NCBI GenBank assembly: GCA_964016885.1
Contig: OZ024742.1
Location: forward strand, 59,830,001 to 59,894,000
DNA: 64,000 nucleotides
From: Eledone cirrhosa
Taxonomy: Eukaryota
Direction: 5' to 3'
The notes under the pieces: model-generated
What the model was told of the DNA's origin: nothing
Seen by the model: only the letters and a program-made list of their open reading frames with translations
Databases searched by the model: none
Translations under genes and position numbers: made by a program
Shown here: positions 1-55,708 of the stretch, in pieces
Numbering within the stretch: position 1 is the stretch's first letter
Layout of the letters: every line of letters starts with the position of its first letter

Positions 1-2116
1 GACGGACTGCTTCGGCTCTCGACGACCGCAGCACAGTGTTGCGAAAACCAATAACAGCCGGTGAAAGCGATGGCTAACTGCACGAGGGGTAAATCGCCAA
101 GTTTGGATGGTCTGCCCTACGAGCTTTATGCATTTATGCCAGACTTGTTCGGTGACCTCTTGGCAAACGTCTACTGCAACTGGCAGCAGAACGGGGGCAT
201 TCCCAGTTTTGTGAGCTGGGCAGCGGTGGCGCTGCTGAGAAAAGACCCGAACAAGGGGGATATTATCGAAAATTTCAGGCCCATAATCCTGCTAAACGCA
301 GAGCTCAAGATTTTGGCCAAGGTGTTAGCAACGAGGTTGGCCCTTGTCGTCAAGGGTCTGGTGGGCGAGGCGCAAACATGCGCCATTCCGGACAGATCCA
401 TACACGACAAACTCCACCCATGCGATACATCATAGAGAGGGTGGTTAAGGAACCTGGCACGGGGCGGCCCCACATCAACTTGGATCAATCCAAAGCATTC
501 TATAGGGTTGACCATCGATACCTGGCGGCGGTCCTCGAGGCAGCCGGTTTCGGGCCCGTTTTCAGGGGTTGGATCGCTGCGATGTACAGCGACATCTGCT
601 CAGTAGTGAGGGTGAACGGTCACCTGTGGCAGCCGTTCAGCATCATGCGCTAGGGTCCGCTCTCGTCCCTCTTGTACGTATTGGCTCTCGAGCCAGCCGT
701 TACTGCACAAACTGGGGGCGTTGACGGGCGTCCCACGCGAACTAGGATGCGGGAAATCCGAGTCGGTTTATGCCGACGACGTCACTCTTGTGGTGTCGAG
801 CACCAGACACGTCCAGATGCTCGGCACCGCTCTCAAGGAATACGAAGCGGTGACAGGAGCAAAGATAAAGCAGGAAAAGTCGGTGGGCTTGCAGCTCGGC
901 ACCTGGAGAGGCAAGTCCATGCCCTCCGACAGCATCGTGGGGCGTTGGACGGATGGACCGGTTAAATTGCTCGGGGTCTGGTTTCGGACCGGACCTCCAG
1001 ATGGAGAAAAACTGGAACGAAGTGACAAGCAAAGTGGCCTCCCTCACCCAGAAATGGGCCGAGAGGAAGCTGTCCCTTAAAGGCCGGGCGGAGTTGGCGA
1101 ATGCGTACATCGCATCCGTCATCTGCTACTGCCTCACCATCGTCCCTTGCCCCGGCCCAACTCTCACCAAAATGGAGTGCCTCCTCTTCCGCTTTTTGTG
1201 GAAGGGACGCGTTCCCATGGTCAGACGATCCATCTGCTGTCAACACCCATTACGTGGAGGACTGGGCATGCCATGGCTGATGATGCACAAACATGCGCTG
1301 AGGCTACAACATCTCTGGTGCTTCCTTGATAGTGAACAGTTGTGGTCACCGTTCGCCAGGCACGTTTTCCCATAGCACGTCTCCTTGAGACCGAGGGATA
1401 GCGCTTGGAAACTGGAATGTCTCCAAGTGCTCACTGCCCTCTGCCAGCTGGGCAACTGTATCGGTGGAACATCCACCTCGGCGTTCTATAGAGGACTAGC
1501 GGAGGGTAATTGCGACGATGTTCTCGGAGAGATCCTGGGCGTCGAAGAAGATCAGCTGTTTGCTCTCTTCCGGAGAACTTTCAGCCCAGGGCCTATGGAT
1601 AACTTCCAAAAATCCCTGGCCTGGCAGTGCTACCGGGGAGCTTGCCGGTTCGAGATAAGCTCTACAGGCACGGAAGTGCCGTCAGTCGAGCCTGTCCGAG
1701 ATGCGCGCAGAGCGACGAAACCGTCGTGCACGCACTCGTTCAGTGCCCGAGCATTGCTGACTTGTCGAGCTATGTCGAACAGTTGCTGTCGCGTGTAGGA
1801 CTGATCCGGTTATCGACTGAGTCCATTGTGAAGATGGTCTCGCCGTCTTCCTTCGAGGAGGAAGGGCAGGCGGTTTTCATCTGCCTGGTGGCCATGGCGA
1901 AAGAGATTGTGTGGTGGACAAGGTTGAAAGGGTTAAAGACAGATACTTTCTTCTTCGGTGAATCCCTAATTAACTGTTTCAAGTTACACTTGAAGAGGAA
2001 AATCAAGGTAGAGAGGCAAGTGCTGCATATTTACACGCACAAAACCCACATGGCACCGCCCTGTGCCGTCTGTAATGTTTTTCTTGATGTCAGCCCTTGT
2101 GGCCAATAAAGAAATC
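1..2116 (+). mobile_element. Tx1/L1-clade LINE, degenerate ORF2 (RT + C-terminal CCHC) and 3' end; 5' part lies outside the window
   Basis: Frameshifted ORFs with KSPSLDG, NFRPIILLN, LDQSKAF, YADD and CPRC..ETVVHALVQC; ends AATAAAGAAATC+(ATT)n; diverged from the copy at 11298-17130. Confidence 0.93.
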
Positions 2117-2152
2117 ATTATTATTATTATTATTAGTAGTAGTAGTAGTAGT
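2117..2152. repeat. (ATT)n/(AGT)n microsatellite, tail/target of the LINE
   Basis: Direct reading. Confidence 0.95.
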
Positions 2153-2353
2153 AAAGGGCGTTGAATTGGCAGTATCGGTAGAAGGTTGGACGCCATGTTT
2201 TCTAGCATAGTTACGTCCCTTTACAGTCTGAGTTCAAATCCCGCCGAGGTTAACTTTGCCTTGCATCCTTACGGGATCGATAAAATAAAGTACCAGTAAT
2301 GTACTGGGTTATTGCTGGCCTTGTGCCTAAACTAAAAATAATTATTATTATTA
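2153..2353 (+). mobile_element. tRNA-derived SINE (abundant octopus-type family) with (ATT)n tail
   Basis: A-box-like TGGCAGTATCGG, B-box GAGTTCAAATCCC, core ..TTTGCCTTGCATCCTTACGGGATCGATAAAATAAAGTACCAGT; related copies at 36757, 47564, 39870 and 62935. Confidence 0.82.
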
Positions 2354-2355
2354 AT

Positions 2356-5300
2356 GACGACCTACGTAGTAAATCGTATTATCGTGAACTCCGCAAAGTT
2401 TTGTTATTTTCAGTTGTTTAAAATTGCCATTATTGGAAATTTTTTATTGTTAACCGTATATAAGTGCACATACATTGTTTTCTGAAAAGGATCCTCAAAA
2501 AGATTGGGGCCTTGAGCCCAAAATTTAAACTTTTATAATTATCAAACAAAGATTTTTCTTTGAAAAATCATGGACGACTCAGGGTCACACCTTCCTCACA
2601 AACTAACACCTCACATCGACACCACCATTGTAAATATTACTACGTTTGCCAACACTAAAAATATAAGCAGTAGCAATATTTTAAATTTGTCTCAGGCAGA
2701 CATTCATTTCCCGCCATTACCAATGACTGCAGGTGTTGAAGCCACCACCCCCACCACCACGACAGCGACAACAGAAACGAATTCGGCCAAAATGAACTCT
2801 TCCACACCGAACACCACTGACGCCACCACCACCACCACAACTGAAACTAAAATTGACAATAACAAAAATAACGATAACAACAAAAGCAACAATGAAATTA
2901 AGAAAACAACCCTGTCTTTTGCCAGAATAGCAAAAAAGTGCGAAGCGATTCAGTTAACTCAGGAGGAATTAGAAGAGGCCCAAAAAATGGTAAAGAAAGA
3001 TGGGTACAGGGTCAGGATCCCCCCCGCCACACCTAATAAAATGGAGCATCAGCGCCTATGCACAGTGTCTTATCGGACAATTAACATAAAATCGCGCCGA
3101 GTGGAACGAGCATCCGAGTCCTAAATCCCAAAAGCTTTGGGACATGTGTGGGCAAAAAAACCCCACATCAGACGTGGGCAGAGATATGGAATCTTGGACG
3201 TGTTCTTTGAAACACCACAGGAGGCCAGAGAACACTCCATGGCTCCATTAAGAAGTGACGACTTCACACTCGTCCCAAGCTATTGTGGCCAGAGACTCGT
3301 GAAGATCAGGGTGACCTACGTTCCACCGGCCATCGAATTTCCCTGGCTAATGGCTGCCGTCCGCGCCGGCATCGAAGCCAACACCCAGATAATGGAAATA
3401 GCGAAAGAAAAGCAGGAGAACTGGTCCGGATCTGGGATGGCGCTCCTGATACAAGCGGACCAAAAAAGCATTGAGGAGATCCAAGAGGTAATAGACCTCA
3501 TTGACGGCAGCAATCTCACCGTAATTATCGAGGGCAGAAGGCCTAGGTGTGTCGTTTGTGGTGAAGGAACCCACCTAAGGGCTTTCTGCCCTCAGGGTAA
3601 AAGGTTGAGGCCACATCTCCTACCCATCCCAGTGACTCAACCATCAACACCACCAGCAACAAAGATAGCAGCAACGACAGAAGCAACTGTAACAGCAACA
3701 ACCCCAGCAACAGTAGCAAAACCAACACCACCACGACCCAACGCACCAGAACTAGCACCAGCGCCTACACCATCCACCACGCCACAACCAAAACTAACAC
3801 CTGTGGAGGATTTTCCACTCCCCGACCTATCACAACTGGAGACAGATTGTGACGACTAGGAGTGGGAAACGGTATCAGGAAAAAAGAAAAAAAGAACCCC
3901 AAAAAGAAAAAAGGATGTACCCTCTCGTCCCTCTTCTACGTATTGACTATCGAGCCATTACTGCACAAACTGGAGACGATGAGGGTGGTCCCGCGCGAAC
4001 TAGGATGCGGAAGATCCGTGTCAGCATATGCGGACGATGTCACCGTAGTGGTGTCGAACGCCAAACTCATCGAGGCGATCGGCACTACACTAAGAGAATA
4101 CGAAGCGGTGATAGGAGCAATGATGAACCAGGAAAAGTCAGTGGGCCTGAAGCTCGGCACCTGGAGAGGCAGGTTCATGCCGTCCAACAGCGTCGTCGGA
4201 CGCCGGACGGGCGAACCGGTTAAATTGCTAGGGGTCTGGTTCGGTCCGGACATCCAGACGGACAAAAACTGGGACGAGGTGACGAGCAGGTGGCTTCTCT
4301 CACCTAGAAATGGGTGGGGAGGAAGCTATCCCTGAAAGGTCGAGCGGAGGTGGCTAACGCGTACATCGCGTCCGTCATCTACTACCGCCTGACCGTCGTA
4401 CCTTGTCCTAAGCCCAGCCTGACTGCGCTGGAGCGTTTCCTCTTTCGCTTTTTGTGGAAGGGACGCTCTCCGATGGTCAGGCGGTCCATCTGCTGTCAAC
4501 ACCCACTACGTGGAGGGCTGGGCATGCCGTAGCTGATGATGCGCAGACACGCGCTCAGGCTACGACATCTCCACCTCTTCCTCGACGGTGATCAGGTGTG
4601 GTCGCCGTTTTCTAGACACGCCTTTCCCCAGCTCGTCTCATTGACGGAGCTGCAGTCCTGGGTCAAGCGAAGACCGAGAGGGAGCGCTTGGAGACTGGAG
4701 TGTCTTCAGGCGCTCACAGCCCTCGACCAATCGGGCAATGTGATCGGTGGAAACTCCACCTTGGCGTTCTATAGAGGATTAGTGGAGGGGAAGAGCCACG
4801 ACGTAGTTGGAGAAAATCTAGGCATCGATGAAAATCAACTAGCCAATCTCTTCGGAAGGACTTTCGGGCCGGGGCCTATGGCCTACTTCCAGAAATCCCT
4901 GGCCTGGCAGTGCTACCGAGGAGCTTTGCCAGTTCGGGATAAACTCTACAGGCATGGAGGTGCCGTCAGCCGGGCACGTCCGAGATGCGCGCAGGGCGAC
5001 GAAACCGTCCTGCACGTACTCATCCAGTGTCCGAGTATTGCTGACTTGTGGGTTTATGTCGAACACCTGCTGTCACGTGTAGGACGGATCCATCTATCAG
5101 CTGAGTCCATCGTGAGGATAGCGCCGCCCTCTTCCTTTAGCCGAGAAGGGCAGGCAGTTTTTATCTGTCTGGTTGCCATGGCGAAAGAGATAGTATGGTG
5201 GACACGTTTGAAAGGGCTGAGGACGAGCACTTACCTCTTCGGTGATGCCCTGATTAACTTTTTCAAATTTCATTTGAAAAGGAAAATCAGGGTAGAGAGA

Positions 5301-5500
5301 GAAGTGCTCTCTGCCCAGCATTTTGTTGAAAGATGGGTTGAGAGAAGCAAGTATGGCCCGAGTGAATGGGCCTACTCTGAGTATGTGTCTGTAAATTAAA
5401 GGTGGAAAACTGGGAGAGGGCACTTGCCCTGGTGGTCAGGGCCACTGTGGTCTTTTAATGGGCTTTCTCCACAAATGTCCCTTGGAAGTCTCCCCCCTAT
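2356..5500 (+). mobile_element. Tx1-clade LINE copy A: intact 5' end, ORF1, ~2.5 kb internal deletion (APE and N-half of RT missing), 3' tail displaced by inversion
   Basis: Colinear with 11298-17130 except for a jump at ~3911 from the ORF1 A-rich tract to RT motif B (aaggatgt.ccctctcg); starts right after (TTA)n. Confidence 0.92.
2570..3859 (+). pseudogene. Tx1 ORF1 (RRM-like region + CCHC zinc knuckle, Thr/Pro-rich), with nonsense stops
   Basis: CVVCGEGTHLRAFC (CX2CX4HX4C); stops at 3122-3124 and 3857-3859; homologous to 11449-13433. Confidence 0.85.
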
Positions 5501-5568
5501 TTTTAAACAAACGGAAATAACAAACCTTTGCGGAGCTCACGATAATACGATTTCCTACGTAGGTCGCC
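5501..5568 (-). mobile_element. Inverted 5' head (~68 bp) of a Tx1 element, the piece missing from copy B
   Basis: Reverse complement matches 2356-2420; copy B at ~11305 begins where this head ends. Confidence 0.88.

Positions 5569-5605
<37 letters not shown>
5569..5605. repeat. (TAA)n tract shared by a Tx1 5' end and a Dong-A 5' end (head to head)
   Basis: Direct reading. Confidence 0.95.
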
Positions 5606-7164
5606 GGAAAGCTGCTGAAGAGTTCAGACATTAATCTTGATCGGGGGAACGTGATAAGAGAACTTGATCAAGAAAAAACTTACAAATATCTAGGTGTTTG
5701 TGAAGGAGACGGAATCAAGCACTCGACAATGAGGGAAAGGATAAGGAAGGAATGTTACCGCAGAGTAAGAGCAATCTTAAGAACGGAATTGAATGCAAGG
5801 AATAGGATCGATGCCATAAACACGCTTGCCATACCAGTAGTAACCTACAGTTACAATGTCATCAACTGGTCAAGCACAGAGATCCGTAGGCTCGATACAA
5901 AAAATCGAAAATTCTTAACCATGCACAGAATGCATCACCCTAAGGCAGATACTGATAGAATATATCTCCCTAGGAATGAAAGAGAACGTGGGTTAATCCA
6001 GTTAGATATTGCGTTGAAAACTGCAACAATTGGATTATCTACATATCTAAGGGAATCACATGATTGGATGATCAAACTCGTTTTGAAACACGAAAGCATC
6101 AAAAGATCATATTCCATTACAAAAGATGCACAAAGATACAGTAATGGACTACAAATTTCAGAAGTCCCATTTACTGCTGAAATGGAAAACACAGAAAAAG
6201 CAAAGCAGGTAAACGTAACTGCAAAGAAAGAACTGCTACAGAAACTGGCTAAGAAATGGCAAGAATAGCCTCTGTATGGAAAATACCCAGACCGAGCTAA
6301 CAATCCTGATGTTGACAAATTTTTAACCCATCAGTGGTTGGCATCCTCTGGACTGAAATCGGAGACTGAAGGACTGATTATATCGGCACAAGATCAGTGT
6401 CTGCCAACAAAAAATTACCAAGCCAACATAATAAAAAATGGGTGCAGCTCATTATGCCGTTTATGCAAAAAACAACCAGAGACCATTGACCATATAATTT
6501 CAACGTGCAGCCCTATAGCTCCAACCGAATACCTAAACAGGCATGACAGAGTTGCACAATACATATATTGGATAATGTGTAAGCATTTTGACCTGCCACA
6601 TCAAAAGAATTGGTGGGAGCATCAACCACATCCCATACTTGAAAAAGATCACATCTCAATCTTGTGGAACTTCTGCATCCAAACAGACCGAAAAATAGAT
6701 GCAAATAGACCTGATATAATATTGAAGGACTTTCAAAAGAGGGTATGCCTGCTAATTGATATGTCTGTTCCAATAGACAAGAATGTATCTATAAAAACAT
6801 TTGAAAAATTGAGCAATTATAAGGACCTGGAGATAGAAATTGGAAAATTGTGGAAATTGAGAACTAAAACAATACCAGTGGTTGTAGGCGCTCTGGGAAT
6901 GATACCTAGGGGGTCTAATGATTACTTATCGCAAATCCCAGGAAACCCGCGTATAGGAGAAATACAAAAGATAGTACTAATGGGAACTGCCCATATACTA
7001 AGGAAGATTCTGTCAATATAAGTACATCACAAGTCTAAACACTAATGATGCATGTGTGAGTATGTATGTTCTTTCTTGAACATGGCGGACCTTGTTGTCT
7101 CTTGAGGTCACTGGTTGTGACTTGGTGATAACTCGTATGAACATAAAGCAAGATAAATGCAACT

Positions 7165-7165
<1 letters not shown>
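5606..7165 (+). mobile_element. R4/Dong-clade RLE non-LTR element, family Dong-A, 5'-truncated (copy 1)
   Basis: YKYLG thumb region, CRLC..ETIDHIISTC, RHD, RPD..LIDMSVP..EKLSNY restriction-like endonuclease; 3'UTR ends AACTG+(TAA)n; one nonsense stop at 6266-6268. Confidence 0.92.
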
Positions 7166-7213
<48 letters not shown>

Positions 7214-7227
7214 TAATAATAATAATA
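7166..7227. repeat. (TAA)n spacer between tandem Dong-A copies
   Basis: Direct reading. Confidence 0.95.
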
Positions 7228-8195
7228 AAGCAAAGCAGGTAAAAGTAACTGCAAAGAAAGAACTGCTACAGAAACTGGCTAAGAAATGGCAAGAAAAGCC
7301 TCTGTATGGAAAATACCCAGACCGAGCTAACAATCCTGATGTTGACAAAACTTTAACCCATCAGTGGATGGCATCCTCTGGACTGAAATCGGAGACTGAA
7401 GGACTGATTATATCAGCACAAGATCAGTGTCTGCCAACAAAAAATTACGAAGCCAACATAATAAAAATTGGGTGCAGCCCATTATGCCATGTATGCAAAA
7501 AACAACCAGAGACCATTGACCATATAATTTCAATGTGCAGTCCTATAGCTCCAACCGAATACCTAAACAGGCATGACAGAGCTGCACAATACATACATTG
7601 GATAATGTGTAAGCATTTTGACCTGCCCCATCAAAAGAATTGGTAGGAGCATCAACCACCTCCCATACTTGAAAAAGATCACATCTCAATCGTGTGGAAC
7701 TTTAGCATCCAAACAGACCGAAAAATAGATGCAAATAGACCTGATATAATATTGAAGGACTTTCAAAAGAGGGTATGCCTGCTAATTGATATGTCTGTTC
7801 CAATAGACAAGAATGTATCTATAAAAACATTTGAAAAATTGAGCAATTATAAGGACCTGGAGATAGAAATTGGAAAAATGTGGAAATTGAGAACTAAAAC
7901 AATACCAGTGGTTGTAGGCGCTCTGGGAATGATACCTAAGGGGTCTAATGACTACTTATCGCAAATCCCAGGAAACCCGCGTATAGGAGAAATACAAAAG
8001 ATAGTACTAATGGGAACTGCCCATATACTAAGGAAGATTCTGTCAATATAAGTACATCACAAGTCTAAACACTAAAGATGTATGTGTGAATATGTATGTT
8101 CTTTCTTGAACATGGCGGACCTTGTTGTCTCTTGAGGTCACTGCTTGTGACTTGGTGATAACTCGTATGAACATAAAGCAAGATAAATGCAACTG
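7228..8195 (+). mobile_element. Dong-A RLE element, 5'-truncated (copy 2)
   Basis: Near-identical to 6197-7165; flanked by (TAA)n on both sides. Confidence 0.92.
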
Positions 8196-8209
8196 TAATA
8201 ATAATAATA

Positions 8210-10712
8210 GGGAAGATACGCACATGATGGATAGAATATTATGGAATCGCTCCCGTAGGTTTTTGATATTTTACATATTTAAAACAATCATGATAGAATA
8301 ATTCTTATTACAAATGGAACATACGATGCCAGTCTTTTACTCTCAGGAAGTGACAACGCATCACATTACGGCATAGGGCTCCAATATTTAACATTTAATT
8401 TTGTATCAGAAATGTTATAGTCAAAAATGAAAATGGTTACGAACAACTACCAAATAATTTCACCACCAACACCACCACCACCGCCGACCATCACCACTAC
8501 CACAAAATATCTAGCCAGGCTGCAGCAACACCATCACAATAGTACTACTATCCCATCACCACCACCACCACTGCATCATCGCTACCACCTCTATTCCCTC
8601 ACTACCTCCTGTTAAGAGAGGGATGGTAGTAGTGCCACTACACATGAATAAGCGAGGAAGGCATCAAAAGACATAAATAGACTTATTTAGTGACCCGGTC
8701 AAACACCTAACAATAACAACAACACCAAAATAATTATTCTTGTTGTATCTCTAAACTCTAAACTCTCTCAAAATGTTTAGTTTAAACGATGTCAAATCTA
8801 AACTATAATATAATAATTAATAATAAGCAACAAATCGAAAGATTATAGAACAGAAAACAGACAAAAACAAATTTCAAACGTTTTGAACGCAACAACGCCT
8901 ACTTCCCACGTAGCTAAAATCAAAAACAGCAGCAGCAGCAGCAGCAACAACAACAACACTAGTAACCGATGTTACTGGCCTTGAAAAATGAAAAACGTAA
9001 AGGAAAAAAAAAAAAAAAAAAACTAAGTCAGACATTCAAACATTACAATAAAACTTATGCTTATTTTTTTAAGTTTTTATCTATTTGTTTATTTATTTAT
9101 GTTCGTCTACAGCGTGATGGTGCCACGCTAAAATCACCTATGCTTATGTAACCTTACATTCACCAATCCTCGATATGAGTGTTTAAATGCTGAAACTAAA
9201 TAGTTCGAATAACGGTGAAAAGGAGACTGGAACGCCATGTGACAGACTCTCGCCCACCAAGTGCCCCCTCGCCCAGCAGCAGGGACCTGGCTGTCATCCA
9301 AATACTGCTGGTGTTGGAGGAAGAAGAAGAAGGAAAGTGACAAGAACCAACTGGACGAAAGAATTGAATAGAACTGTCATGGAATGTTACCTGAAGAGTA
9401 ACCCCTAGGAAAAAGGCTATAGGAAACGGGTGCATAACATCTGGAACGAGATTGGACTATTTAAATTGGATGAACAAAAATTGGCCGGGCAGGCTCGAGT
9501 AATAAGAACTAATGGATGGATAAGAGAGTTGGAACTGGAGGAACTGAGCAGAGAGATTAGGTTAGGAATGGAGAGTGGAGTATGCCAGACAAACGAGCCA
9601 GTGGGAAATGAAGGTGAAGAGATTGAGAGACCGGGGAAAGTATCCGAAGCAAACAATGATCTGAATGCTGAAATAAATAACATTTGGAACAAAGATACGA
9701 CTATTGAGGAAATGAATGCTGACGGGCTAGGACAAGATTTGGTTGATATCCTGAACTTAGTGGTAGATGAAATGAACAATGATAGTGGAAAACCTATGAA
9801 CCTAAGATTTGTAGACAGGAAAAAGTTAAAAGAAACAACAGCTACGGTAAACAAAGTCATCCCATACCTTGAGGCGAGAAACCTTCAGCAATGCAACAAT
9901 ATCCTCAAAGCAACCGCAAATGCGGTGAGGAAATTACTTGGCATAAAAGCGAGAGGAAACAACAAACAAGAAAGATCAGAACCTTGATGGAAGAAACGAC
10001 TGAATGGTCAAATCAAGGAAATGAGAAAAGACATTGGAAAACTTGAGTCCTTAATGAATGGGACAGTACAAAACATAGACACTAAAGATAGATTGGAAAT
10101 AAAATACAAATCTAGGGGTGGGTGGGGGAGCTAAATATTATCATAGAGGAAATGAAGCAACGCATTGTAGCAAAAAGTGCAAAGATTAGGCGGTCTGAGA
10201 ACAGAGTCAGTCAGTATAGACAGAAGCGCATGTTTGACAACAACCAGAGTCGGTAATAGAAAACGACCATGTGAAGGTGCTATGGGATTTTAGGATACAG
10301 ACGGACAGTAAATTATAACACAATAGGCCTGACCTGGAGGTTTTGGACAAGGAAAAAAGATCGTGCCTGATGTAGCCTGCCCATTTGACACGAGAGTGCA
10401 AGAAAAGAAGAAGTAGAAAATTAACCGATACCAGGATTTAAAGTGGGAGTTAAAAAGGATTTGGAACTGCCACTAAATCAAGGTCGTCCCGATTGTCATA
10501 GGCGCACTAGGTACTATCACAAAGAGTTTCCAATGATGGTTAAAGAAGATAAGTCCAGCCCCGTATTTTGGAACACTTAAAAAGGCATGCTTGCTGGGAA
10601 CAGTAAGAACCTTCCGATACGTCCTTAATATCTGAGGCTGCAGGTAGCGGCTTGATATTCATTTCAACAAACTTTCCCGTTAAATTACTTCAATGACTGT
10701 GTCTCAAAGAAC
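8210..10712 (+). mobile_element. Dong-B RLE element, older diverged copy with both termini and an internal deletion removing the RT
   Basis: 5' GGGAAGA..AATCGCTCCCGTA and ORF N-terminus (RTNWTKELNRTVMECYLKSNP) match 27118-31677; jump at ~10243 to the RLE region; (TAA)n on both sides. Confidence 0.88.

Positions 10713-10763
<51 letters not shown>
10713..10763. repeat. (TAA)n tract shared tail to tail by Dong-B (+) and a Tx1 3' end (-)
   Basis: Direct reading. Confidence 0.95.
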
Positions 10764-10764
<1 letters not shown>

Positions 10765-11297
10765 TTTTCTTTATTAACCAGAAGGGTTTACATAAAGTAG
10801 ACATTAAGGACAGTACAGGACAATACAGGACGGTACAAATGGGCATTTCTGCGTGTAAAAAAACAGAGGATGAAATAAAATAACAAAGAAAAATTCCCCA
10901 ATAGGGGGGAGACTTCCGAGGGACATTTGTGGAGAAAGCTCATTAAAAGAACACAGTGGCCCTGACCACCAGGGCAAGTGCCCTCTCCCAGTTTTCCACC
11001 TTTAATTTACAGACACATACTCAGAGTAGGCCCATTCACTCGGGCCATACTTGCTTCTCTCAACCCATCTTTCAACAAAATGCTGGGCAGAGAGCACTTC
11101 TCTCTCTACCCTGGTTTTCCTTTTCAAATGAAATTTGAAAAAGTTAATCAGGGCATCACCGAAGAGGTAAGTGCTCGTCCTCAGCCCTTTCAAACGTGTC
11201 CACCATACTATCTCTTTCGCCATGGCAACCAGACAGATAAAAACTGCCTGCCCTTCTCGGCTAAAGGAAGAGGGCGGCGCTATCCTCACGATGGACT
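10764..11297 (-). mobile_element. Inverted 3' end of Tx1 copy A, including an inverted duplicate of 5104-5501
   Basis: Carries copy-A diagnostic variants (SSFSREG, GLRTS, VLSAQH, extra T in GGGTTGAGAG); ends AATAAAGAAAAC+(ATT)n on the minus strand. Confidence 0.9.
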
Positions 11298-11448
11298 TTT
11301 ATGGAAAATTGCCATTTATGGAAAATTTTATTGTAAACTGTTTATAAGCACACATACATTGTTTTCCGAAAAGGACACCCAAAAAGATTGGGGCCTTGTG
11401 CCCAAAATTTTAACTTTTATTATTATCCAAAAATTTCTTTGAAAAAAA

Positions 11449-13433: not shown

Positions 13434-13467
13434 GTGGTCTTTCCCATCTTTTCCACTCCTTTTCAAC

Positions 13468-16887: not shown

Positions 16888-17129
16888 ATTAAAGGTGGAA
16901 AACTGGGAGAGGGCACTTGCCCTGGTGGTCAGGGCCACTGTGGTCTTTTAATGGGCTTTCTCCACAAATGTCCCTTGGAAGTCTCCCTCCTATTGGGGAA
17001 TTTTTCTTTGTTATTTTATTTCAACCTCTGTTTTTTTACACGCAGAAAAGCCCATTTGTACCGTCCTGTATTGTCCTGTACTGTCCTTAATGTCTACTTT
17101 ATGTGAACCCTTGTGGTTAATAAAGAAAA

Positions 17130-17130
<1 letters not shown>

Positions 17131-17163
<33 letters not shown>
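17131..17163. repeat. (ATT)n tract shared tail to tail by Tx1 copy B (+) and Dong-B (-)
   Basis: Direct reading. Confidence 0.95.
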
Positions 17164-20100: not shown

Positions 20101-20440
20101 AGGATATCAACCAAATCTTGTCCTAGCCCGTCAGCATTCATCTCCTCAGTGGCCACTGTCCTCTGTTCCAGGTACTATTTATCTAAGCATTCAGATCATT
20201 GTCTGCTTCGGGTGGTTCCTCCGTTCTCTCGACCTCTTCACCTTCCTTTCCCACTGGCTCGTTTGCCTGGCATACTCCACTCTCCATCTCCAAGCTAATC
20301 TCTCTGCCCAGTTCCTCCAGTTCCAGCTCGCTTATCCACCCATTAGTTCTTATTACCCGAGCCTGCCCGGCCAATTTTTGTTCATCTAATTTAAATAGAC
20401 CAATCTCGTTCCAGATGTTATGCATCCGTTTCCTATAGCC
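17164..20440 (-). mobile_element. Dong-B RLE element (copy C), 3' end intact, 5' ~1.4 kb missing, several frameshifts
   Basis: NYRPITCL, WIDYKKAFD, QGDSLSP, LFMDDLK, RHD, NRP(E)..IVDVACPFD..KEREK. Confidence 0.92.
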
Positions 20441-23400: not shown

Positions 23401-24566
23401 TATTCGAACTGTTTAGGTTCGATATTTAAACACTCTTATCGAGGATTGGCGAATGTATGGTTACATAGCAATCTGTGGATTCACTTGGCTCTTGTGTGGA
23501 ATTATCACCATTCTGTAGACGAACACAAATAAACAAACAAACAAACAGGCAGAAAAAAACCCAAAAATGAATAAGCATAAGTTTCATTGTAATGTAGTGT
23601 TCGAATGTCTGACTTAGTTTTTCCCTTCTCTTCTCTGTCCGTCTGCTTGTTTCTCTCTTCATTCTTATTTTCTTTACGTTTTTTTGTTTTTGTTTTTCTC
23701 TGTTTGTTTTGTTGTTGTTGTTGCTGTGCTGCTTTGGTTTTGATTTTTGTTTTTTCTTTTGAGTCTATCTATATATTTTGATGCCTTCCTCTTTTTTAGT
23801 AGGAATTCTATAATGTGGTGGCAGTGCTGTGCTAGCAGAAACCAACAGGAAGCAATGGGAGAGAATAGCGGCGGTAGCGATACTGAGGCAGTGGTGGTGG
23901 TGATGTGATCGTATTACTGTAGTGATGGTGTTGTAGCGGTGGTAGCAATGAAGGAGTCATTGATGGGATAGTGGTAGTAATAATGGATGGGCGGCGGCGG
24001 CGGTGACTGTAATGATGGCATTGTCGTCACTGATGTCCGTTCGGTGAATCTATGGGGTTAGTCGCGTACATGTGTTGACATAAATTCCCTTAATGTTGGA
24101 ATTAAACGTTTTGTTAAAACTTGGGACAATAATAATAGTATTTATTATTATCATTATTATGTTAAGATTGGTTGTGGTGGTGGTGAAGTTGCCGTTATCT
24201 GGCTGTTGTGTTTAGTGTACACAGAGAGGTGATGGGGTAGGTGGTGTATCTAGTTTCTGGTGTTGGTGAGATTGGTGTTGTTTGGCTGTTCTATATAGTG
24301 TAGACAGAGGAGGGGGGGTCTTCTTCTTCCATTTATAGCCATTTTCTTTTTTGAATATACAATGTACAATACAAAGTTGAATATTTGAATATTTGAGCCT
24401 TATAACAATATATTTTGGGTCCGAATTTTTTGTGGCTCAAGCCGGATGCTTTACGTAACATTTGTACTAAGAGTTGTTATTTCACAAATGATTTAAATAT
24501 GTTAAAAATTCAAAACTTACGGGAGCGATTTCACGACCTTCTATCCGCCACGTGCGTCTTCTCCCT
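20441..24566 (-). mobile_element. Dong-B RLE element (copy D), 5' end intact with ~1.15 kb leader, 3' nuclease region missing (fused to copy C)
   Basis: ORFs 22241-23392, 21131-22189 and 20183-21079; 5' end GGGAGAAGACGCAC right after (TAA)n. Confidence 0.92.
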
Positions 24567-24569
24567 TTA

Positions 24570-24623
<54 letters not shown>
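24567..24623. repeat. (TTA)n spacer
   Basis: Direct reading. Confidence 0.95.
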
Positions 24624-24624
<1 letters not shown>

Positions 24625-25520
24625 AGTTGCATTTATCTTGCTTTATGCTCATACGAGTTATCACCAAGTCACAACCAGTGACCTCAAGAGACAACAAGGT
24701 CCGCCATGTTCAAGAAAGAACATACATATTCACACATGCATCTTTAGTGTTTAGACTTGTGATGTACTTATATTGACAGAATCTTCCTTAGTATATGGGC
24801 AGTTCCCATTAGTACTATCTTTTTTGCTTGACCAGTTGATGACATTGAAACTGTAGGTTACTACTGGTATGGCAAGCGTGTTTATGGCATCGATCCTATT
24901 CCTTGCATTCAATTCCGTTTTTTAGATTGCTCTCACTCTGCGGTAACGTTCCTTCCTTATCCTTTCCCTCATTGTCGAGTGCTTGATTCCGTCTCCTTCA
25001 CAAACACCTAGATATTTGTAAGTTTTTTCTTGATCAAGTTCTCTTATCACGTTCCCCCGATCAAGATTAATGTCTGAACTCTTCAGCAGCTTTCCTCTGG
25101 TGAACGTTGCTTTGGCGCATTTATCTAGTCCAAACTCCATTTTAATGTCATCACTGAACTGCTTCACAGTGGATAATAGCCCTTGCAATTGTTCATCATT
25201 TTTTGCAAATAGTTTCAGGTCATCCATGTAGAACAGGTGATTAATGGTTTTGTCATAGACTTTATATCCATGTTTTGTTTCATTGAGCATTTTACTTAAT
25301 GGTAAAAGTGCGATGCAGAATAAAAGCGGTGATAAAGAGTCACCCTGAAAAATTCCACACTTAATATTAACTTCTCCAGCTTCCAGTGATTTTGTTTCAC
25401 TATTCAAAAGGAGTGTCGTTTTCCATGTCTTCATACTGAATGACAAAAACCTCCTGACAACGGGGGATACTTTGAAAATCTCTAAACATTTTTCAACTGT
25501 GTGGTAAACTATCAAATGCT
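24624..25520 (-). mobile_element. Dong-A copy 3: 5'-truncated within RT, ~1.1 kb internal deletion at ~24826
   Basis: KAFD, GIFQGDSLSP, LFYMDDLK; 3'UTR matches 7020-7165. Confidence 0.9.
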
Positions 25521-25532
25521 TATTATTATTAT

Positions 25533-27090
25533 TTGCATTTATCTTGCTTTATGTTTATACTAGTTATCACCAAGTCACAACCAGTGACCTCAAGAGACAA
25601 CAAGGTCCGCCATGTTCAAGAAAGAACATACATATTCACACATGCATCCTTAGTGTTTAGACTTGTGATGTACTTATATTGACAGGATCTTCCTTAGTAT
25701 ATGGGCAGTTCCCATTAGTACTATCTTTTGTATTTCTCCTATACACGGGTTTCCTGGGATTTGCGATAAGTAGTCGTTAGAACCCTTAGGTATCATTCCC
25801 AGAGCGCCTACAACCACTGGTATTGTTTTAGTTCTCAATTTCCACATTTTTCCAATTTCTATCTCCAGGTCCTTATACTTGCTCAATTTTTCAAATGTTT
25901 TTATAGATACATTCTTGTCTATTGGAACAGACATATCAATTAGCAGGCATACCCTCCTTTGAAAGTCCTTCAATATTATATCAGGTCTATTTGCATCTAT
26001 TTTTCGGTCTGTTTGGATGCTAAAGTTCCACAAGATTGAGATGTGATCTTTTTCAAGTATGGGAGGTGGTTGATGCTCCCACCAATTCTTTTGATGGGGC
26101 AGGTCAAAATGCTTACACATTATCCAATGTATGTATTGTGCAGCTCTGTCATGCCTGTTTAGGTATTCGTTTGGAGCTATAGGACTGCACATTGAAATTA
26201 TATGGTCAATGGTCTCTGGTTGTTTTTTGCATACACGGCATAATGGGCTGCACCCATTTTTTATAATGTTGGATTGGTAATTTTTTGTTGGCAGACACTG
26301 ATCTTGTGCCGATATAATCAGTCCTTCAGTCTCCGATTTCAGTCTAGAGGATGCCAACCACTGATGGGTTAAAGTTTTGTCAACATCTGGATTGTTAGCT
26401 CGCTCTGGGTATTTTCCATACAGAGGCTTTTCTTGCCATTTCTTAGCCAGTTTCTGTAGCAGTTCTTTCTTTGCAGTTACTTTTACCTGCTTTGCTATTT
26501 CTGTGTTTTCCATTTCAGCAGTAAATGGGACTTCTGAAATTTGTAGTCCATTACTGTATCTTTGTGCATCTTTTGTAATGGAATATGATCTTTTGATGCT
26601 TTCGTGTTTCAAAACGAGTTTGATCATCCAATCATGTGATTCCCTTAGATATGTAGATAATCCAATTGTTGCAGTTTTCAACGCAATATCTAACTGGATT
26701 AACCCACGTCCTCCTTCTTTCCTAGGGAGATATATTCTATCAGTATCTGCCTTAGGGTGATGCATTCTGTGCATGGTTAAGAATTTTCGAATGTTTGTAT
26801 CGAGCCTACGGATCTCTGTGCTTGACCAGTTGATGACATTGTAACTGTAGGTTACTACTGGTATGGCAAGCGTGTTTATGGCATCGATCCTATTCCTTGC
26901 ATTCAATTCCGTTCTTAAGATTGCTCTTACTCTGCGGTAACATTCCTTCCTTATCCTTTCCCTCATTGTCGAGTGCTTGATTCCGTCTCCTTCACAAACA
27001 CCTAGATATTTGTAAGTTTTTTCTTGATCAAGTTCTCTTATCACGTTCCCCCGATCAAGATTAATGTCTGAACTCTTCAGCAGCTTTCCT
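25533..27090 (-). mobile_element. Dong-A copy 4, 5'-truncated, uninterrupted ORF to the stop at 25674
   Basis: ORF 25674-27143 with thumb, CCHC, RHD and PD-(D/E)xK-like RLE motifs; flanked by (TTA)n. Confidence 0.93.
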
Positions 27091-27117
27091 ATTATTATTA
27101 TTATTATTATTATTATT
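27091..27117. repeat. (TTA)n spacer
   Basis: Direct reading. Confidence 0.95.
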
Positions 27118-30100
27118 GTTGTTATTCCTTGAATCTCAGTCATTGATGTTGGTTAACTGGAAAGTCCGTTGGAATGAATATCAAGCCACTACCTGCAGCC
27201 TCAGATATTCAGGACGTATCGGAGGGTTCTTGCTGTTCCAAGCAAGCATGCCTTTTGAAGCGTTCCAAAAAGCGTGAAGGGGCCGATTTTCTTTAACCAT
27301 CCCTGGAAACTTTTGGAGATAGTCCCCAGTGCGCCTATGACAATCGGGATCACTTTGACTTCATGGCAGTTCCAAATCCTTTTCACCTCCCACTTTAGGT
27401 CCTGGTATCGGTTAATTTTCTCCCTCTCCTTCTCTTGCACTCTCGTGTCGAACGGGCAGGCCACATCCACAATCAGACATGATCTTTTTTCTTTGTCCAC
27501 AACCACCAGGTCAGGTCTATTGTGTTCCAGTTTTTTGTCCGTCTGTATCCTAAAATCCCACAGCACCTTCACCTGATTGTTCTCCATCACCGCATCCGGC
27601 CTATGCTCATACCATTTCTCAGAGTGTGGTAAATTGTTTACTTTGCACAGGTGCCAGTGGATCACCCTGCCCATCACATCGTGTCTCCAGCCCTTATAGT
27701 AGGTCTGGGCTAGGTGTTTACACTCGGACACAATGTGAGCCACAGTCTCCTCTCTCTCTCCACAGATCCTGCACAGTGGGCTAGCCTCCTCCTTGTAAAT
27801 ATGGTGCTTCAACCACTTCGTTTTGAGGGCCTGCTCCTGCGCAGCCATTATCATTCCTTCTGTAGCCCTTTTGAGGTCTCCTCTTCTCAACCAGTTCCAT
27901 GTCTGTGGATCTCTAAATTCCGTTTTCTCAAAGAAGGTACTATGAAGGGATTTTCCCTTAAGGCTGCTCTTCCTCCTTGATGTTATTTCCATCTTGGACA
28001 TCCCCTGGCCTACTGTCCCCTCCTTCAGTACAGTTTTGAGCATTGGCTCCTTACTATAGGTCACGTATTTGTATAGCTTGTTTTTCTCCATCTGAACACA
28101 GTCCTCTATGCTGATAAGACCTCTTCCACCCTCAGATCTCCTTAGGTAGAGTCTATCAACATCACTCCTCTTGTGGAACATGTTGTAGATAGTCAATAGC
28201 TTCCTAGTCTTCCTATCCATTTCTTTTTGTTCAGCAACATTCCATCTCAGAATTCCCGCACTGTACCTAATAATAGACACAGCTCGGGAATTTACTGCGC
28301 TTATGGCATTTCTGCTGTTCAGATGTGACTTCAATACGCTCCTTACTCTCCGAATGTATTCAGTTCTTAACAATTCCTTCATTTTTTTGTTCTTTATGCC
28401 ATCAGCCTCCAGAACGCCCAAATACTTGTATCCTTCCTCAGAGTCAATTTCCTTTATCATCTCACCTGTTGGTATCTGGATCCCGCTACTTCTGCTCAAC
28501 CTACCCCTCCTCATCACAATGACTCCACATTTACCAATACCAAACTGCATACATATATCACTGCTGAAAATACGGACAGTGTCAACAAGCACATCCAACT
28601 CCTTCTCACTTTTCCCGAAGAGCTTAAGATCGTCCATGAAGAGGAGGTGATTGATGGTAAGCTCTCCTCTTCCCAACTTGTATCCTGCTCTCACTTTTCG
28701 CAGTACACTAGTCAGGGGCATCAGGGCAAGGACAAAGAACAGAGGGGACAGGCTATCTCCCTGGAAGATACCTCTCTTGATCTTCACGCTTCCCAAGGAT
28801 ACTCCAGTTGATGTCAACTCTGTCTCCCAGGACCCCATACTCCTGCCCAGCAACTGTCTGATGTTATCTGCCACCCTGAAGATCTCCAGGCTTTTGGTGA
28901 TCCAAGAATGAGGCACCATGTCAAATGCCTTTCTGTAGTCTATCCATCCCATGGCAAGATCAGTGTGTCTCCTCCTGCAATTCCCCCATTACCATCTTAT
29001 CAATAAGTAACTGGTCCGTTGTAGCACGTGATTTCTTTCGGCATCCTTTCTGTTCGTCCGGTAACAAGTTGTTTGTGTGGAGGTGATGGTAGATTTCCTC
29101 AGACACAATGCTCGTCAACAGTTTCCACATTACGGACAGACATGTGATAGGTCTATAGTTGGTAACATCATTACCCTTGATTCGGTCTTTCATTATCAGA
29201 ACTGTGGTACCTTTTGTCAACCACTCTGGCACCTCACCCGACACCAAGCAGTCATTGAACATGGCCGTCAGCTTCGGGTAGAGGGATGTTAAATGATTAA
29301 TCCAATACCCCTGCACACCATCTGGGCCTGGTGATTTCCAGTTGGTTAGTTTTTTGGCCTGCCCCTTAAGAGTTTCAACTGTGATACTCAAATCAGTTTG
29401 TTGTTGTGCCTGCTCACCGATCTCCCTCTGTACTGTCTCAATCCACCCTGCCTGGGCATTATGTCTAACATCCTGCTCCCATATTCCTCTCCAGAATGTT
29501 TTAGTTTGTTCCGCCCCAGGGATCAAGTCGTTGCCTCTTTCTTTCCCCTCAAGCTGTCCAAACAGCATCTTCTGGTTGTTGTCGAACATGCGGTTCTGTT
29601 TATACTGACTGACTCTGTTCTCGTATCGCCTGATTTTTGCACTCTTTGCTACAATGCATTGCTTCAGTTCCTCTATGATAATATTTAGCTTTTTTCTCCT
29701 AGTTTTGTACTTTATTTCCAGTCTATTTTTAGTGCCTATGTTTTTTAGTGTCCCATTCAGTAGTGACTCAAGCTTTCCTATGTCATTTCTCATTTCCCCG
29801 ATTTGCCCACTCAGTCGCTTCTTTCACCACGGCTCTGCTCTTTCTCGTCTGTTGTTTCCTCTCGCTTTTATACCAAGTAGTTTCCTCACCGTATTTGCTG
29901 TTGCTTTGAGGATATTGTTGCACTGGTGAAGGCTCCTCGCCTCAAGGTATGGGATGACTTTGTTTACCTTAGCTGTTGTTTCTTTTAACTTTTTCCTGTC
30001 TACAAATCTTAGGTTCATAGGTCTCCCACTATCATTGTTCAATTCATCTACCACTAAATTTAGGATGTCAACCGAATCTTGTCCTAGCCCGTCAGCATTC

Positions 30101-31677
30101 ATCTCCTCAGTGGCCGTATCTCTGTTCCAGGTATTATTTATCTCAGTATTCAGATCATTGTCTGCTTCGGGTGGTTCCTCCATTCTCAGGACCTCTTCAC
30201 CTTCATTTCCCACTGGCTCGCTTGTCTGGCATACTACACCCGCCATCTCCAAGCCATTCTCTCTGCTCAGTTCCTCCAGTTCCAGCTCGCTTATCCACCC
30301 ATTAGTTCTTATTACCCGAGCCTGCCCGGCCAATTTTTGTTCATCTAATTTAAATAAACCAATCTCGTTCCAGATGTTATGCATCCGTCTCCTGTAGCCC
30401 CTCTCCTTGGGGTTACTTTTCAGGTAGCATTGCATAACAGTTCTATTCAATTCTTTCGTCCAGTTGGTTCTGGCCCCTTTCCTTCTTCTTCTTCCTCCAA
30501 CATCAGCAGTATTTGGTTGACAGTCAGGTTCCTGCTGCTGAGCCAGGGGGCACCTGTTGGGTGAGAGTCTGTCACATGACGTTCTAGTCTCAATTTCACC
30601 GTTATTCGAACTGTTTATGTTCGATATTTAAACACTCTTATCGAGGATTGGCGAATGTATGGTTACATAGCCATCTGTGGATCCGCCATCCCACTTGGCC
30701 CTTGTGTGGCATTATCACTACGCTGTATACGAACACACATAAACAAACAAACACACAGGCAGAAAGGGCCCCAAAAATGAATAAGCATAAGTTTCATTGT
30801 AATGTAGTGTTCGAATGTCTGACTTAGTTTTTGTTTTTTAAGTTTTAGTTCCCCCCCCCCCTCTTCTCTGTCCGTCCGCCTGCTTCTCTCTTCATTCTTA
30901 TTTTCTTTACGTTTTTGGGGTTTCTTTTTTTGTTTTTGTTTTTCTCTGTTTGTTTTTCTCGTTTTTGCTGTTGTTGCTGTGCTGCTTTGGTTTTGTTGTT
31001 TGTTTTTTCTTTTTTCTTTTGAGTCTATCTATATATTTTGATGCCTTCCTCTTTGTTAGTAGTAGGAATTCTATAATGTGGAAGTAGCAGCCAGCAGGGA
31101 GAAGTGGGAGACTGGCGGCGGTAGCGATACTGAGACAGTGGTGGTGGTGATGTCGATACCGAGGCAGTGGTGGCGGTGATGTGACCGTATTACTGTAGTG
31201 GTGGTGCTGTAGCGGTGGCAGCAGTGAAGGAGTGAAGGGGTGGTGGCGGCGGTGATGGGATAGTGGTGGTAATGATGGCCGTAGTGAGCGGTGGTGGTGA
31301 AGGTGAAAATGCCGTTATCTGGCTGTTGTGTTTAGTGTACACCGATGATGGGGTGGGTGGTGTATCTAGTTTCTGGTGTTGGTGAGTTTGGCTGTCCTAT
31401 ATAGTGTAGACAGAGGAGAGGAGGGGGGGGGGGTTCTTCTTCCATTTATAGCCATTTTCTTTTTTGGATATACAGTGTACAATACAAAGTTGAATATTTG
31501 AATATTTGAGCCTTATAACAATATATTTTGGGTCCGAATTTTTTGGGGCTCAAGCCGGGTGCTTTACGTAGCATTTGTACTAAGAGTTGTTATTTCACAA
31601 ATGATTTAAATATGTTAAAAATTCAAAACTTACGGGAGCGATTTCATGACCTCCGTCACCTCGTGCGTCTTCTTCCC
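27118..31677 (-). mobile_element. Dong-B RLE element, full length (~4.56 kb; copy E)
   Basis: Both termini in (TAA)n; ~1.1 kb leader, single long ORF, ~80 bp 3'UTR. Confidence 0.95.
27201..30593 (-). pseudogene. Dong-B ORF: N-terminal domain + RT + CCHC + restriction-like endonuclease, frameshifts near 29820 and 28980
   Basis: KSPGPDG, NYRPITCL, EQKGC, WIDYRKAFD, QGDSLSP, FMDD, YKYLG, CRICGEREETVAHIVSEC, RHD, NRPD..IVDVACPFD..EK..Y. Confidence 0.9.

Positions 31678-31721
<44 letters not shown>
31678..31721. repeat. (TTA)n spacer
   Basis: Direct reading. Confidence 0.95.
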
Positions 31722-32369
31722 GTTCTTAGAGTCTCAGTCATTGATGTTAGTTAACTGGAAAGTTTGTTGAAATGAATATCAAGCCACTACCTGCAGCCTC
31801 AGATATTCAGGACATATCGGAGGGTTCTTGCTGTTCCCAGCAAGCATGCCTTTTGAAATGTTCCAAAAAGAGGGGTGGGGCCAATTTTCTTTAACCATCC
31901 CTGGAAACTTTTGGAGATAGTACCTAGTGCGCCTATGACAATCGGCACCACTTTGATCTCATGGCAGTTCCAAATCCATTTTACCTCCCACTTTAAGTTC
32001 TGGTATCGGTTAATTTTCTCCCTCTCCTTCTCTTGCACTCTAGTGTCAAATGGGCACGTCCTCCTTCTTTCCTAGGGAGATATATTCTATCTATATCTGC
32101 CTTAGGGTGATGAATTCTGTGCATGGTTAAGAATTTTCGAATTTTTGTATCGAGCCTACGGATCTCTGTGCTTCACCAGTTGATGACATTGTAACTGTAG
32201 GTTACTACTGGTATGGCAAGCGTGTTTATGGCATCGATCCTATTCCTTGCATTCAATACCGTTCTTAAGATTGCTCTTACTCTGCGGTAACATTCATTCC
32301 TTATCCTTTCCCTCATTGTCGAGTGCTTGATTCCGTCTCCTTCACAAACACCTAGATATTTGTAAGTTT
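31722..32369 (-). mobile_element. Chimeric RLE fragment: Dong-A internal piece (32055-32369) joined to a Dong-B 3' end (31722-32056)
   Basis: 31722-32056 reads the same as 17164-17498; 32055-32369 matches 26705-27019; 2-nt CA overlap at the junction. Confidence 0.88.
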
Positions 32370-32405
32370 CTTCTTCTTCTTCTTCTTCTTCTTCTTCTTC
32401 TTCTT

Positions 32406-32479
<74 letters not shown>

Positions 32480-32530
32480 TGTTGTTGTTGTTGTCAATAA
32501 AGAAAACATTATTGTTGTTGTTGTTGTTGT
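32368..32530. repeat. Compound microsatellite (TTC)n(TTA)n(TTG)n, right boundary of the young array
   Basis: Direct reading. Confidence 0.95.
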
Positions 32531-32639
32531 ACTTTCTTCACCGACACATGTACGCTCTCGTAAATGTGTTGTTTTTTCATTGTTATCCAACCTATTTTGT
32601 TGAATATTTCATATCATTTTACTGTAAAACTAAACAGTA

Positions 32640-51780: not shown

Positions 51781-51809
51781 ATATATATACATACATATAT
51801 ATATCTTGG

Positions 51810-55653: not shown

Positions 55654-55708
<55 letters not shown>

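What the first reader, a model, noticed from the sequence alone, without database searches (positions are those of the whole stretch)
1..32530. Polarised >32 kb array built by two unrelated retrotransposon classes sharing one (TTA)n/(TAA)n microsatellite from opposite strands
Seen: about a dozen elements sit end to end with no host DNA between them. Nearly every intact terminus lies in a TTA/TAA tract (2117, 2341, 5569, 7166, 8196, 10713, 17131, 24567, 25520, 27091, 31678, 32434). Read in their own sense, Tx1 (APE nuclease) copies are flanked by (ATT)n, while Dong-A/B (RLE nuclease) copies are flanked by (TAA)n. They therefore meet tail to tail or head to head on a shared tract. After undoing the 5501-11297 inversion, all Tx1 are + and all RLE are -. 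Known: Dong and Rex6 (R4 clade) target TAA repeats, and TRAS/SART insert in opposite orientations into silkworm (TTAGG)n. Inference: this is a self-propagating landing pad where each insertion leaves or regenerates target for both classes. It is a TRAS/SART-like two-strand partition, but between an APE and an RLE element at a simple microsatellite, and it might mark a structural (subtelomeric, centromeric or piRNA-cluster-like) locus.
Basis: partly seen in the sequence, partly recalled or inferred. Interest (0 to 1): 0.85.

Follow-up and report, generated by a model that had tools for sequence, protein, structure and literature searches.

The report
Two retrotransposon classes share one microsatellite
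Across this genome two unrelated kinds of jumping gene sit in the same three-letter repeat but face opposite ways, likely because each insertion leaves fresh target for both, so they pile into long mixed arrays, and this window is one large example rather than a special chromosome landmark.

Summary
Three LINE families build the array: T (5.9 kb, two ORFs, APE-RT, Tx1-like) and A and B (4.5 and 4.9 kb, one ORF, RT-CCHC-RLE, R4/Dong-like). In the whole genome 2090 of 2240 exact T 5' ends follow (ATT)3 in one register and none follows (TAA)3; 686 of 1154 A/B 5' ends follow (TAA)3 and 2 follow (TTA)3. Outside the window, 38 of 40 T-RLE neighbours across a tract are opposite. The array lies at 59.8 Mb of a 379 Mb contig, starts 5.3 kb before the window, and has peers of 21-31 kb. 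Sampled contig ends are nearly free of these families. Part of its length comes from local duplication and an inversion. Dong-TAA targeting, Tx1 microsatellite targeting and TRAS/SART polarity are each known; an (ATT)n-targeting Tx1-like lineage sharing Dong's target from the other strand was not found in ten literature searches. New variant of a known kind.

The parts
1..2116 (+). Older T copy (Tx1-like LINE), 3' part; RT and zf-RVT remnants; continues about 770 bases upstream of the window
   Evidence: 80.7% to natural full-length T; Pfam RVT_1, zf-RVT; upstream part
2117..2153 (+). (ATT)6 tract followed by (AGT)n
2154..2340 (+). High-copy SINE-like repeat, co-oriented with T, tract on both sides
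   Evidence: 2.4% of 60 random stretches; when a tract flanks it, it is ATT-type; SINE label is from size and copy number, not tested
2341..5500 (+). (ATT)4 then chimeric T: 5' UTR and ORF1 of an 81% copy fused at 3911 to the 3' part of ORF2 of a 95.5% copy; cut by the left inversion breakpoint
5501..11297 (-). Inverted segment. Left junction has short microhomology; right junction has a 7-base filler copied from adjacent T sequence; 398 bases are duplicated in inverted orientation (5104-5500 versus 10901-11297, 99.0%)
5499..5604 (-). First 70 bases of the T whose body starts at 11305, with its 5' tract (5569-5604)
   Evidence: 100% to T 1-70
5605..8207 (+). Two 5'-truncated B copies (5605-7162, 7227-8192) with (TAA)n tracts at 7166-7226 and 8196-8207
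   Evidence: 97-98% to natural full-length B
8208..10763 (+). Older A copy with internal deletion at 10244-10248 and (TAA)17 tract at 10713-10763
   Evidence: 80-84% to A
10764..11297 (-). T 3' end, tail to tail with the older A
   Evidence: 95.9% to T 5368-5900
11305..17130 (+). Near full-length T: ORF1 with zinc knuckle, ORF2 with APE (13429-14067) and RT plus zf-RVT (14194-16887); ORF2 interrupted by stops
   Evidence: 98.3% to T; Pfam; ORFs
17131..17163 (.). (ATT)11 tract shared tail to tail by T and A
17164..24566 (-). Two A copies fused at 20440 without a tract; 5' end at about 24566
   Evidence: 88-92% to A; RVT_1
24567..27126 (-). Tract 24567-24623, internally deleted B (24627-25524), tract 25520-25531, 5'-truncated B (25533-27090), tract 27090-27126
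   Evidence: the 5' junction of the 25533-27090 copy occurs twice in the genome, both in this window
27127..31677 (-). Full-length A; ORF broken into three open stretches
   Evidence: 97.5% to A 1-4547; ORFs
31678..32530 (-). Terminal module: tract, A 3' end (31729-32056, identical to 17171-17498) fused to a B fragment (32055-32375), then (TTC)n, (TTA)n, (GTT)n and a 15-base remnant like the T 3' end
32531..36757 (+). Old, degenerate T-like LINE abutting the array in T polarity
   Evidence: about 40% amino-acid identity to T ORF2

Best explanation
The array is one of many interstitial clusters in which a Tx1-like APE LINE (T) and two R4/Dong-like RLE LINEs (A, B) lie on opposite strands of the same (TAA)n/(TTA)n microsatellite, likely because both insert into it by target-primed reverse transcription and each insertion leaves tract on both sides for the next. 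Shown: strand-specific tracts at both ends, opposite orientation of T and RLE neighbours, dispersal, local duplications and an inversion here. Inferred from how TPRT works: T is primed from a nick in the (TAA)n strand and A/B from a nick in the (TTA)n strand; each RNA's 3' repeat pairs with the freed primer; one tract becomes two, so a site gains targets and grows. T into an A/B tail, or the reverse, gives tail-to-tail joins; insertion into a 5' tract gives head-to-head joins. This array was then lengthened by local duplication and rearranged by a repair-type inversion. No host function is needed to explain it.
For: Whole-genome counts: 2090 of 2240 exact T 5' ends directly follow ATTATTATT, 0 follow (TAA)3; 686 of 1154 A/B 5' ends follow (TAA)3 within 0-2 bases, 2 follow (TTA)3. 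In 108 non-window search loci, pairs across a tract: T-RLE 38 of 40 opposite, RLE-RLE 41 of 41 same, T-T 14 of 14 same; the two exceptions are reversed 5' pieces of RLE copies whose bodies are opposite to T in one case and whose main remnant is opposite in the other (L192, L193). T 5' ends lie next to other elements' ends: 10 of 29 next to an intact T 3' end and 9 of 29 next to an A/B 5' end, 2 next to those reversed pieces, 8 unclassified, as expected if they enter existing tracts. Two further T subfamilies with different 5' UTR and ORF1 (about 53% and 33% amino-acid identity) also start after (ATT)n, at all 10 and all 3 distinct places found. Other arrays of 20.9, 30.6 and at least 21 kb. 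Dong elements are reported to target TAA repeats, including DongBg in a snail (PMC3812793, passages).
Against: No empty (pre-insertion) site was seen, so a pre-existing tract is inferred, not shown; target-site duplications cannot be measured inside a repeat. 468 of 1154 A/B 5' ends did not match the strict pattern (in the 30 read by eye such ends had altered last bases or (GAA)n in between, but the rest were not read). Many 5'-truncated alignment ends have no tract (A 30 of 51, B 16 of 33, T 12 of 17 among young copies); those inspected are often internal deletions or duplications, but not all were classified. Independent reads did not confirm the window's own junctions. No endonuclease assay exists.
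Confidence: 0.8

Rival explanations
1. Self-made tracts: the elements insert at short AT-rich sites and write the tracts themselves (3' by slippage, 5' because the RNA starts within upstream repeat); polarity follows from the RNA ends alone and neither nuclease reads the microsatellite.
For: T 5' junctions are in one fixed register (2090 of 2240), as if the repeat were part of the RNA; one A body is interrupted by a tract at an AT-rich spot (L087). Tails as a source of microsatellites are well known (PMC3812793, passages).
Against: Element bodies make up about 6% of random sequence yet none of 29 T 5' ends interrupts an element body, while 21 of 29 abut a known element's end. 5'-truncated copies, which lack the RNA start, often have the same strand-specific tract (A 21, B 17, T 5 cases, none of the opposite type among young copies). 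A softer form, nicks on both strands with polarity set by RNA-primer pairing, is not excluded.
Confidence: 0.12
2. The array marks a structural or silencing locus (subtelomere, centromere, piRNA cluster) that selects for it.
For: It is the longest of the arrays measured (about 38 kb against 21-31 kb). A transcript across it would be antisense to one class (inference).
Against: Position 59.8 Mb of 378.9 Mb; no TTAGGG dimer in the window; 20 stretches at or near ends of contigs C1-C6 hold 0.02% T and no A/B against 4.9%, 0.9% and 0.5% in 60 interstitial stretches (only two of the 12 sampled ends reach telomeric repeat); arrays are scattered and point both ways, including small mirror-polarity clusters 55-70 kb upstream; no long satellite in the window.
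Confidence: 0.05
3. Assembly artefact: copies joined through their microsatellite ends.
For: Laid reads and contigs gave no record spanning the stretch or showing its unique junctions, and the runs may not be from this species (best share of words 0.37).
Against: No N in the window; neighbours differ by 2-20% and include 12-base tracts too short to drive a join; 5' ends with tracts number in the thousands; the inversion has a templated filler and a 398-base duplicate with 4 mismatches.
Confidence: 0.03

Closest known systems
Dong (R4 clade; Bombyx mori Dong, DongAg, snail DongBg)
   Same: TAA microsatellite target (PMC3812793, passages); R4 lineage (PMC3774820, passages). A and B have one ORF with RT, CCHC region, RHD and PD..D..K RLE motifs and (TAA)n at both ends. 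Dong-R4 is abundant and recently active in Octopus vulgaris (PMC13282606).
   Different: Two co-existing families only 39% identical; no Rfam ribozyme match at the A 5' end, whereas B. mori Dong self-cleaves there; they share the target with an APE element.
Microsatellite-targeting Tx1 elements (Kibi, Koshi, crocodilian Tx1) and telomeric Tx1-1_ACar
   Same: Two ORFs, APE-RT-zinc finger, strong target preference for a simple repeat (PMC4494074, passages and section 15; PMC10088271, passages).
   Different: Reported microsatellite targets are (TC)n, (TTC)n, (TTCC)n and (TTTC)n; T uses (ATT)n. Figure 3 and the supplements of PMC4494074, which list more targets, and Repbase could not be seen.
TRAS and SART of Bombyx mori
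   Same: Two families insert into one tandem repeat in opposite orientations and form mixed arrays (PMC10088271, passages).
   Different: TRAS and SART are both R1-clade elements at telomeric repeats; here the partners are an APE and an RLE element from distant branches, the target is an interstitial trinucleotide microsatellite, and sampled chromosome ends are depleted.

Membership tests
R4/Dong clade (A, B) | Single ORF with non-LTR RT and no APE domain | tested here: met
   Intact ORFs of 1148 and 1052 aa; RVT_1 only, no Exo_endo_phos
R4/Dong clade (A, B) | C-terminal CCHC region plus PD-(D/E)xK restriction-like endonuclease | tested here: met
   RHD and RPD..D..K..Y motifs; CxxC..H..C read in the translations (my regex for it missed); best solved-structure hits are R2 proteins, aligned into the RLE region
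R4/Dong clade (A, B) | Insertion in (TAA)n | tested here: met
   686 versus 2; 29 of 30 scored, 30 of 30 by eye
R4/Dong clade (A, B) | RT phylogeny grouping with named Dong or R4 | not testable with these tools
   No named Dong/R4 protein was returned; the tree has no such reference
R4/Dong clade (A, B) | 5' HDV-like ribozyme (reported for B. mori Dong) | tested here: inconclusive
   No Rfam ribozyme hit; folding no better than shuffles; pseudoknots are not modelled
Tx1 clade (T) | ORF1 plus ORF2 with APE, RT and C-terminal zinc finger (L1 group) | tested here: met
   Pfam Exo_endo_phos, RVT_1, zf-RVT; best solved hit human L1 ORF2, E 1.5e-51; ORF1 knuckle
Tx1 clade (T) | RT phylogeny placing it in Tx1 rather than L1 | tested here: inconclusive
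   One hit named 'Transposon TX1 uncharacterized 149 kDa protein' at 38%; it falls in the same unresolved 21-row branch as T, with no L1 reference in the tree
Tx1 clade (T) | Target-sequence preference (over 20% of flanks, the criterion in PMC4494074) | tested here: met
   93% of 5' ends (2090 of 2240)
TRAS/SART telomeric system | Opposite-orientation insertion into one repeat | tested here: met
TRAS/SART telomeric system | R1-clade elements at telomeric repeats near chromosome ends | tested here: not met
   Interstitial; ends depleted; partners are L1-group and RLE elements
piRNA cluster or centromere | Small-RNA production or CENP-A occupancy | not testable with these tools
   No RNA holder listed

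The most novel reading that the evidence does not exclude
An undescribed (ATT)n-specific Tx1-like lineage (at least three subfamilies, with a co-oriented SINE) and the Dong lineage form a cross-clade two-strand partnership: each class renews target for the other, together building polarised arrays over about 6% of an octopod genome, with strand choice set by RNA-tail pairing to the primer rather than by the nuclease, and with read-through across tail-to-tail joins making each class the antisense of the other.
Probability: 0.3. Interest if true: 0.7.

Novelty: new variant of a known kind. Interest (0 to 1): 0.47.

Why it matters
It gives thousands of natural insertions in which two unrelated endonuclease types use one symmetric-access target from opposite strands, so one can ask directly whether the nuclease or RNA-primer pairing sets orientation in target-primed reverse transcription. 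It offers a simple sequence rule for where a large share of young LINE DNA accumulates in an octopod genome; the O. vulgaris annotation I read reports active Dong-R4 and L1-Tx1 and TE hotspots without discussing target sites in the parts seen (PMC13282606, parts 1-2 of 3). A strongly microsatellite-specific APE element is also of interest as a targeted-insertion tool. The window itself is not a landmark.

Tried and rejected
Subtelomeric reading: rejected. Ribozyme at T or A 5' ends: no Rfam ribozyme match, folds no better than shuffles; not excluded. Shared 5' UTR between T and A/B, suggested by eye: not significant (79 and 102 of 500 shuffles scored as well; one older copy 12 of 500). SINE 3' end derived from T 3' end: weak (282 and 25 of 500). 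Read support: no RNA holder listed; four runs laid on 2000-5568 showed T and the SINE at very high depth but no record resolving the window's junctions, inconclusive. A end 3' DNA search returned nothing because common words are skipped, so A 3' ends were scored only as neighbours. A whole-genome count of tail-to-tail joins was not obtained; that figure rests on sampled loci. Relatives of T in metagenome contigs were distant (25-42% to the query) and showed no (ATT)n ends; the closest, L275, ends in (AT)n. Cluster look-ups and the Atlas gave no clade names. Earlier scan findings: none.

Full report
Setting. The window is G000:C3:59,830,001-59,894,000 in a 2.996 Gb assembly; C3 is 378.9 Mb long. 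The closest named relative of the T protein is from Argonauta hians at 70% identity, so the host is likely an octopod cephalopod (inference).

Anatomy. Using natural full-length copies from elsewhere in the genome as references, 31,334 of bases 1-32,530 are T, A, B, SINE or tract. T is 5.9 kb with ORF1 (zinc knuckle) and ORF2 (APE, RT, zf-RVT); its best solved-structure match is human L1 ORF2. A (4.55 kb) and B (4.9 kb) have one ORF with RT, a CCHC region and RLE motifs, and match R2 proteins best; they are 39% identical over 920 residues. The longest window copies have interrupted ORFs; intact ORFs exist elsewhere. The array begins 5.3 kb upstream with a B copy and is followed by an old T-like copy, about 38 kb without it and 42 kb with it.

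Genome-wide rule. Exact-pattern counts over the whole assembly: 2240 T 5' ends, of which 2090 directly follow ATTATTATT and none follows (TAA)3; 1154 A/B 5' ends, of which 686 follow (TAA)3 within 0-2 bases and 2 follow (TTA)3. Reversed-pattern controls were 0. These patterns see only copies with the exact terminus. In 108 non-window loci from four DNA searches (the top 30 of 40 scored hits for three, mostly on C1, and all 21 for B; three window loci dropped), neighbours across a tract were opposite in 38 of 40 T-RLE pairs and alike in 41 of 41 RLE-RLE and 14 of 14 T-T pairs; RLE-SINE pairs were opposite in 9 of 9 (a few junctions may be counted twice where loci overlap). Counting one focal end per locus: of 29 T 3' ends, 16 face an A/B in opposite orientation, 2 a T and 2 a SINE in the same, 9 unclassified; of 30 A 5' ends, 21 follow an A/B 3' end, 1 a T 5' end, 8 unclassified, and four of those eight proved to be heads of other T subfamilies. 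The two same-orientation T-A cases are reversed 5' pieces of RLE copies. In 60 evenly spaced 10-kb stretches T, A, B and SINE cover 4.9%, 0.9%, 0.5% and 2.4%, and 12 of 29 TAA/TTA tract clusters touch T/A/B against 5 of 674 other microsatellite clusters.

Not a special locus. Three other regions, chosen because hits clustered there or because a random stretch fell in an array, hold blocks of 20.9, 30.6, at least 21.2, and 12.6 plus 9.2 kb; so the window's array is the longest seen but of the same kind, and this sample is biased towards large arrays. Twenty stretches at or within 0.5 Mb of the ends of C1-C6 hold 0.02% T and no A or B; only two of the 12 ends reach telomeric repeat. Centromere and piRNA roles were not testable.

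Local history. The 5' junction of the B copy at 5605 occurs exactly twice in the genome, here and at 27090; their first 586 bases are 99.1% alike against 98.1% for the best outside copy, though their 3' parts differ more (34 of 39 mismatches). 17171-17498 equals 31729-32056 exactly, against 94.8% for the best of the other hits. The inversion carries a 398-base inverted duplicate (99.0% against 97.5%) and a short templated filler at the right junction, which fits a repair event (inference). So the dozen elements are not a dozen independent insertions.

Mechanism. From established TPRT chemistry, the primer strand is the one complementary to the element's sense, so T would be primed on the (TAA)n strand and A/B on the (TTA)n strand (inferred). 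Full-length T copies carry tract on both sides (16 of 16 printed), so each insertion would turn one target into two, usable by either class. That the tract pre-exists is inferred from T 5' ends abutting other elements' ends rather than interrupting bodies and from truncated copies having the same strand-specific tract; no empty allele was seen. Whether nuclease or RNA-primer pairing sets polarity is open.

Comparison. Dong targeting of TAA, including in a snail, is listed in PMC3812793 (passages; that review calls Dong APE-type, while PMC3774820 places it in the R4 lineage, passages, and PMC4640811 lists R4 among RLE clades, passages). Tx1 elements target (TC)n, (TTC)n, (TTCC)n and (TTTC)n (PMC4494074, passages and section 15; figure 3 and supplements not seen) and telomeric repeats (PMC10088271, passages), which also describes TRAS/SART polarity. 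Dong-R4 and L1-Tx1 are known as abundant in cephalopods (PMC13282606, parts 1-2 of 3; PMC8967140 and PMC10294476, passages). Ten searches found no report of an (ATT)n-targeting Tx1 or of an APE/RLE pair sharing a microsatellite; the library lacks most subscription papers and Repbase, so this is weak evidence of novelty. Clade names are provisional because no reference Tx1, L1, Dong or R4 sequence was in the tree.

Verdict. Real, strong and genome-wide; works like TRAS/SART but is not a member of that system; the locus is ordinary for this genome. New variant of a known kind, interest 0.47.

Noticed in passing
window 49875-52031 (-): Run of broken reading frames that by eye resemble a degenerate Penelope-like element (RT followed by a GIY-YIG-like end); label recalled, no Pfam hit.
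   Followed up: partly
L195:7512-9800 and L206:7121-9300: Two further T subfamilies with different 5' UTR and ORF1 joined to T-like ORF2; the first switches to near identity with T at about base 2155, suggesting a 5' module swap.
   Followed up: partly
window 2154-2340 and genome-wide: The SINE follows T polarity whenever a tract flanks it, but most copies in random stretches have no tract; it may be moved by T. The copy at 36760-36909 is opposite to the old T-like element and has no tract between them.
   Followed up: partly
L131:6330-6718 versus window 31300-31677: A and B share a similar 5' UTR (74-80%) although their proteins are 39% identical.
   Followed up: no
window 32368-32435; L044, L047, L053, L054, L131: (GAA)n runs often lie between the (TAA)n tract and an A or B 5' end, perhaps from slippage on the GAAGAAGA start.
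   Followed up: no
L192, L193, L122: Copies with reversed 5' pieces, like twin-priming products, in both RLE and T elements.
   Followed up: partly
L316 (G000:C3:100001-110000): Telomeric-repeat block about 100 kb inside the start of C3, while the first 20 kb have none.
   Followed up: no
L275 3' end: A metagenome relative of T (41% over the RT) ends in a long (AT)n run, hinting at a related microsatellite preference.
   Followed up: no
window 42254-42533 and 55549-58230: A 155-base tandem duplicate and long (AT)n-centred inverted repeats in the AT-rich flank.
   Followed up: no
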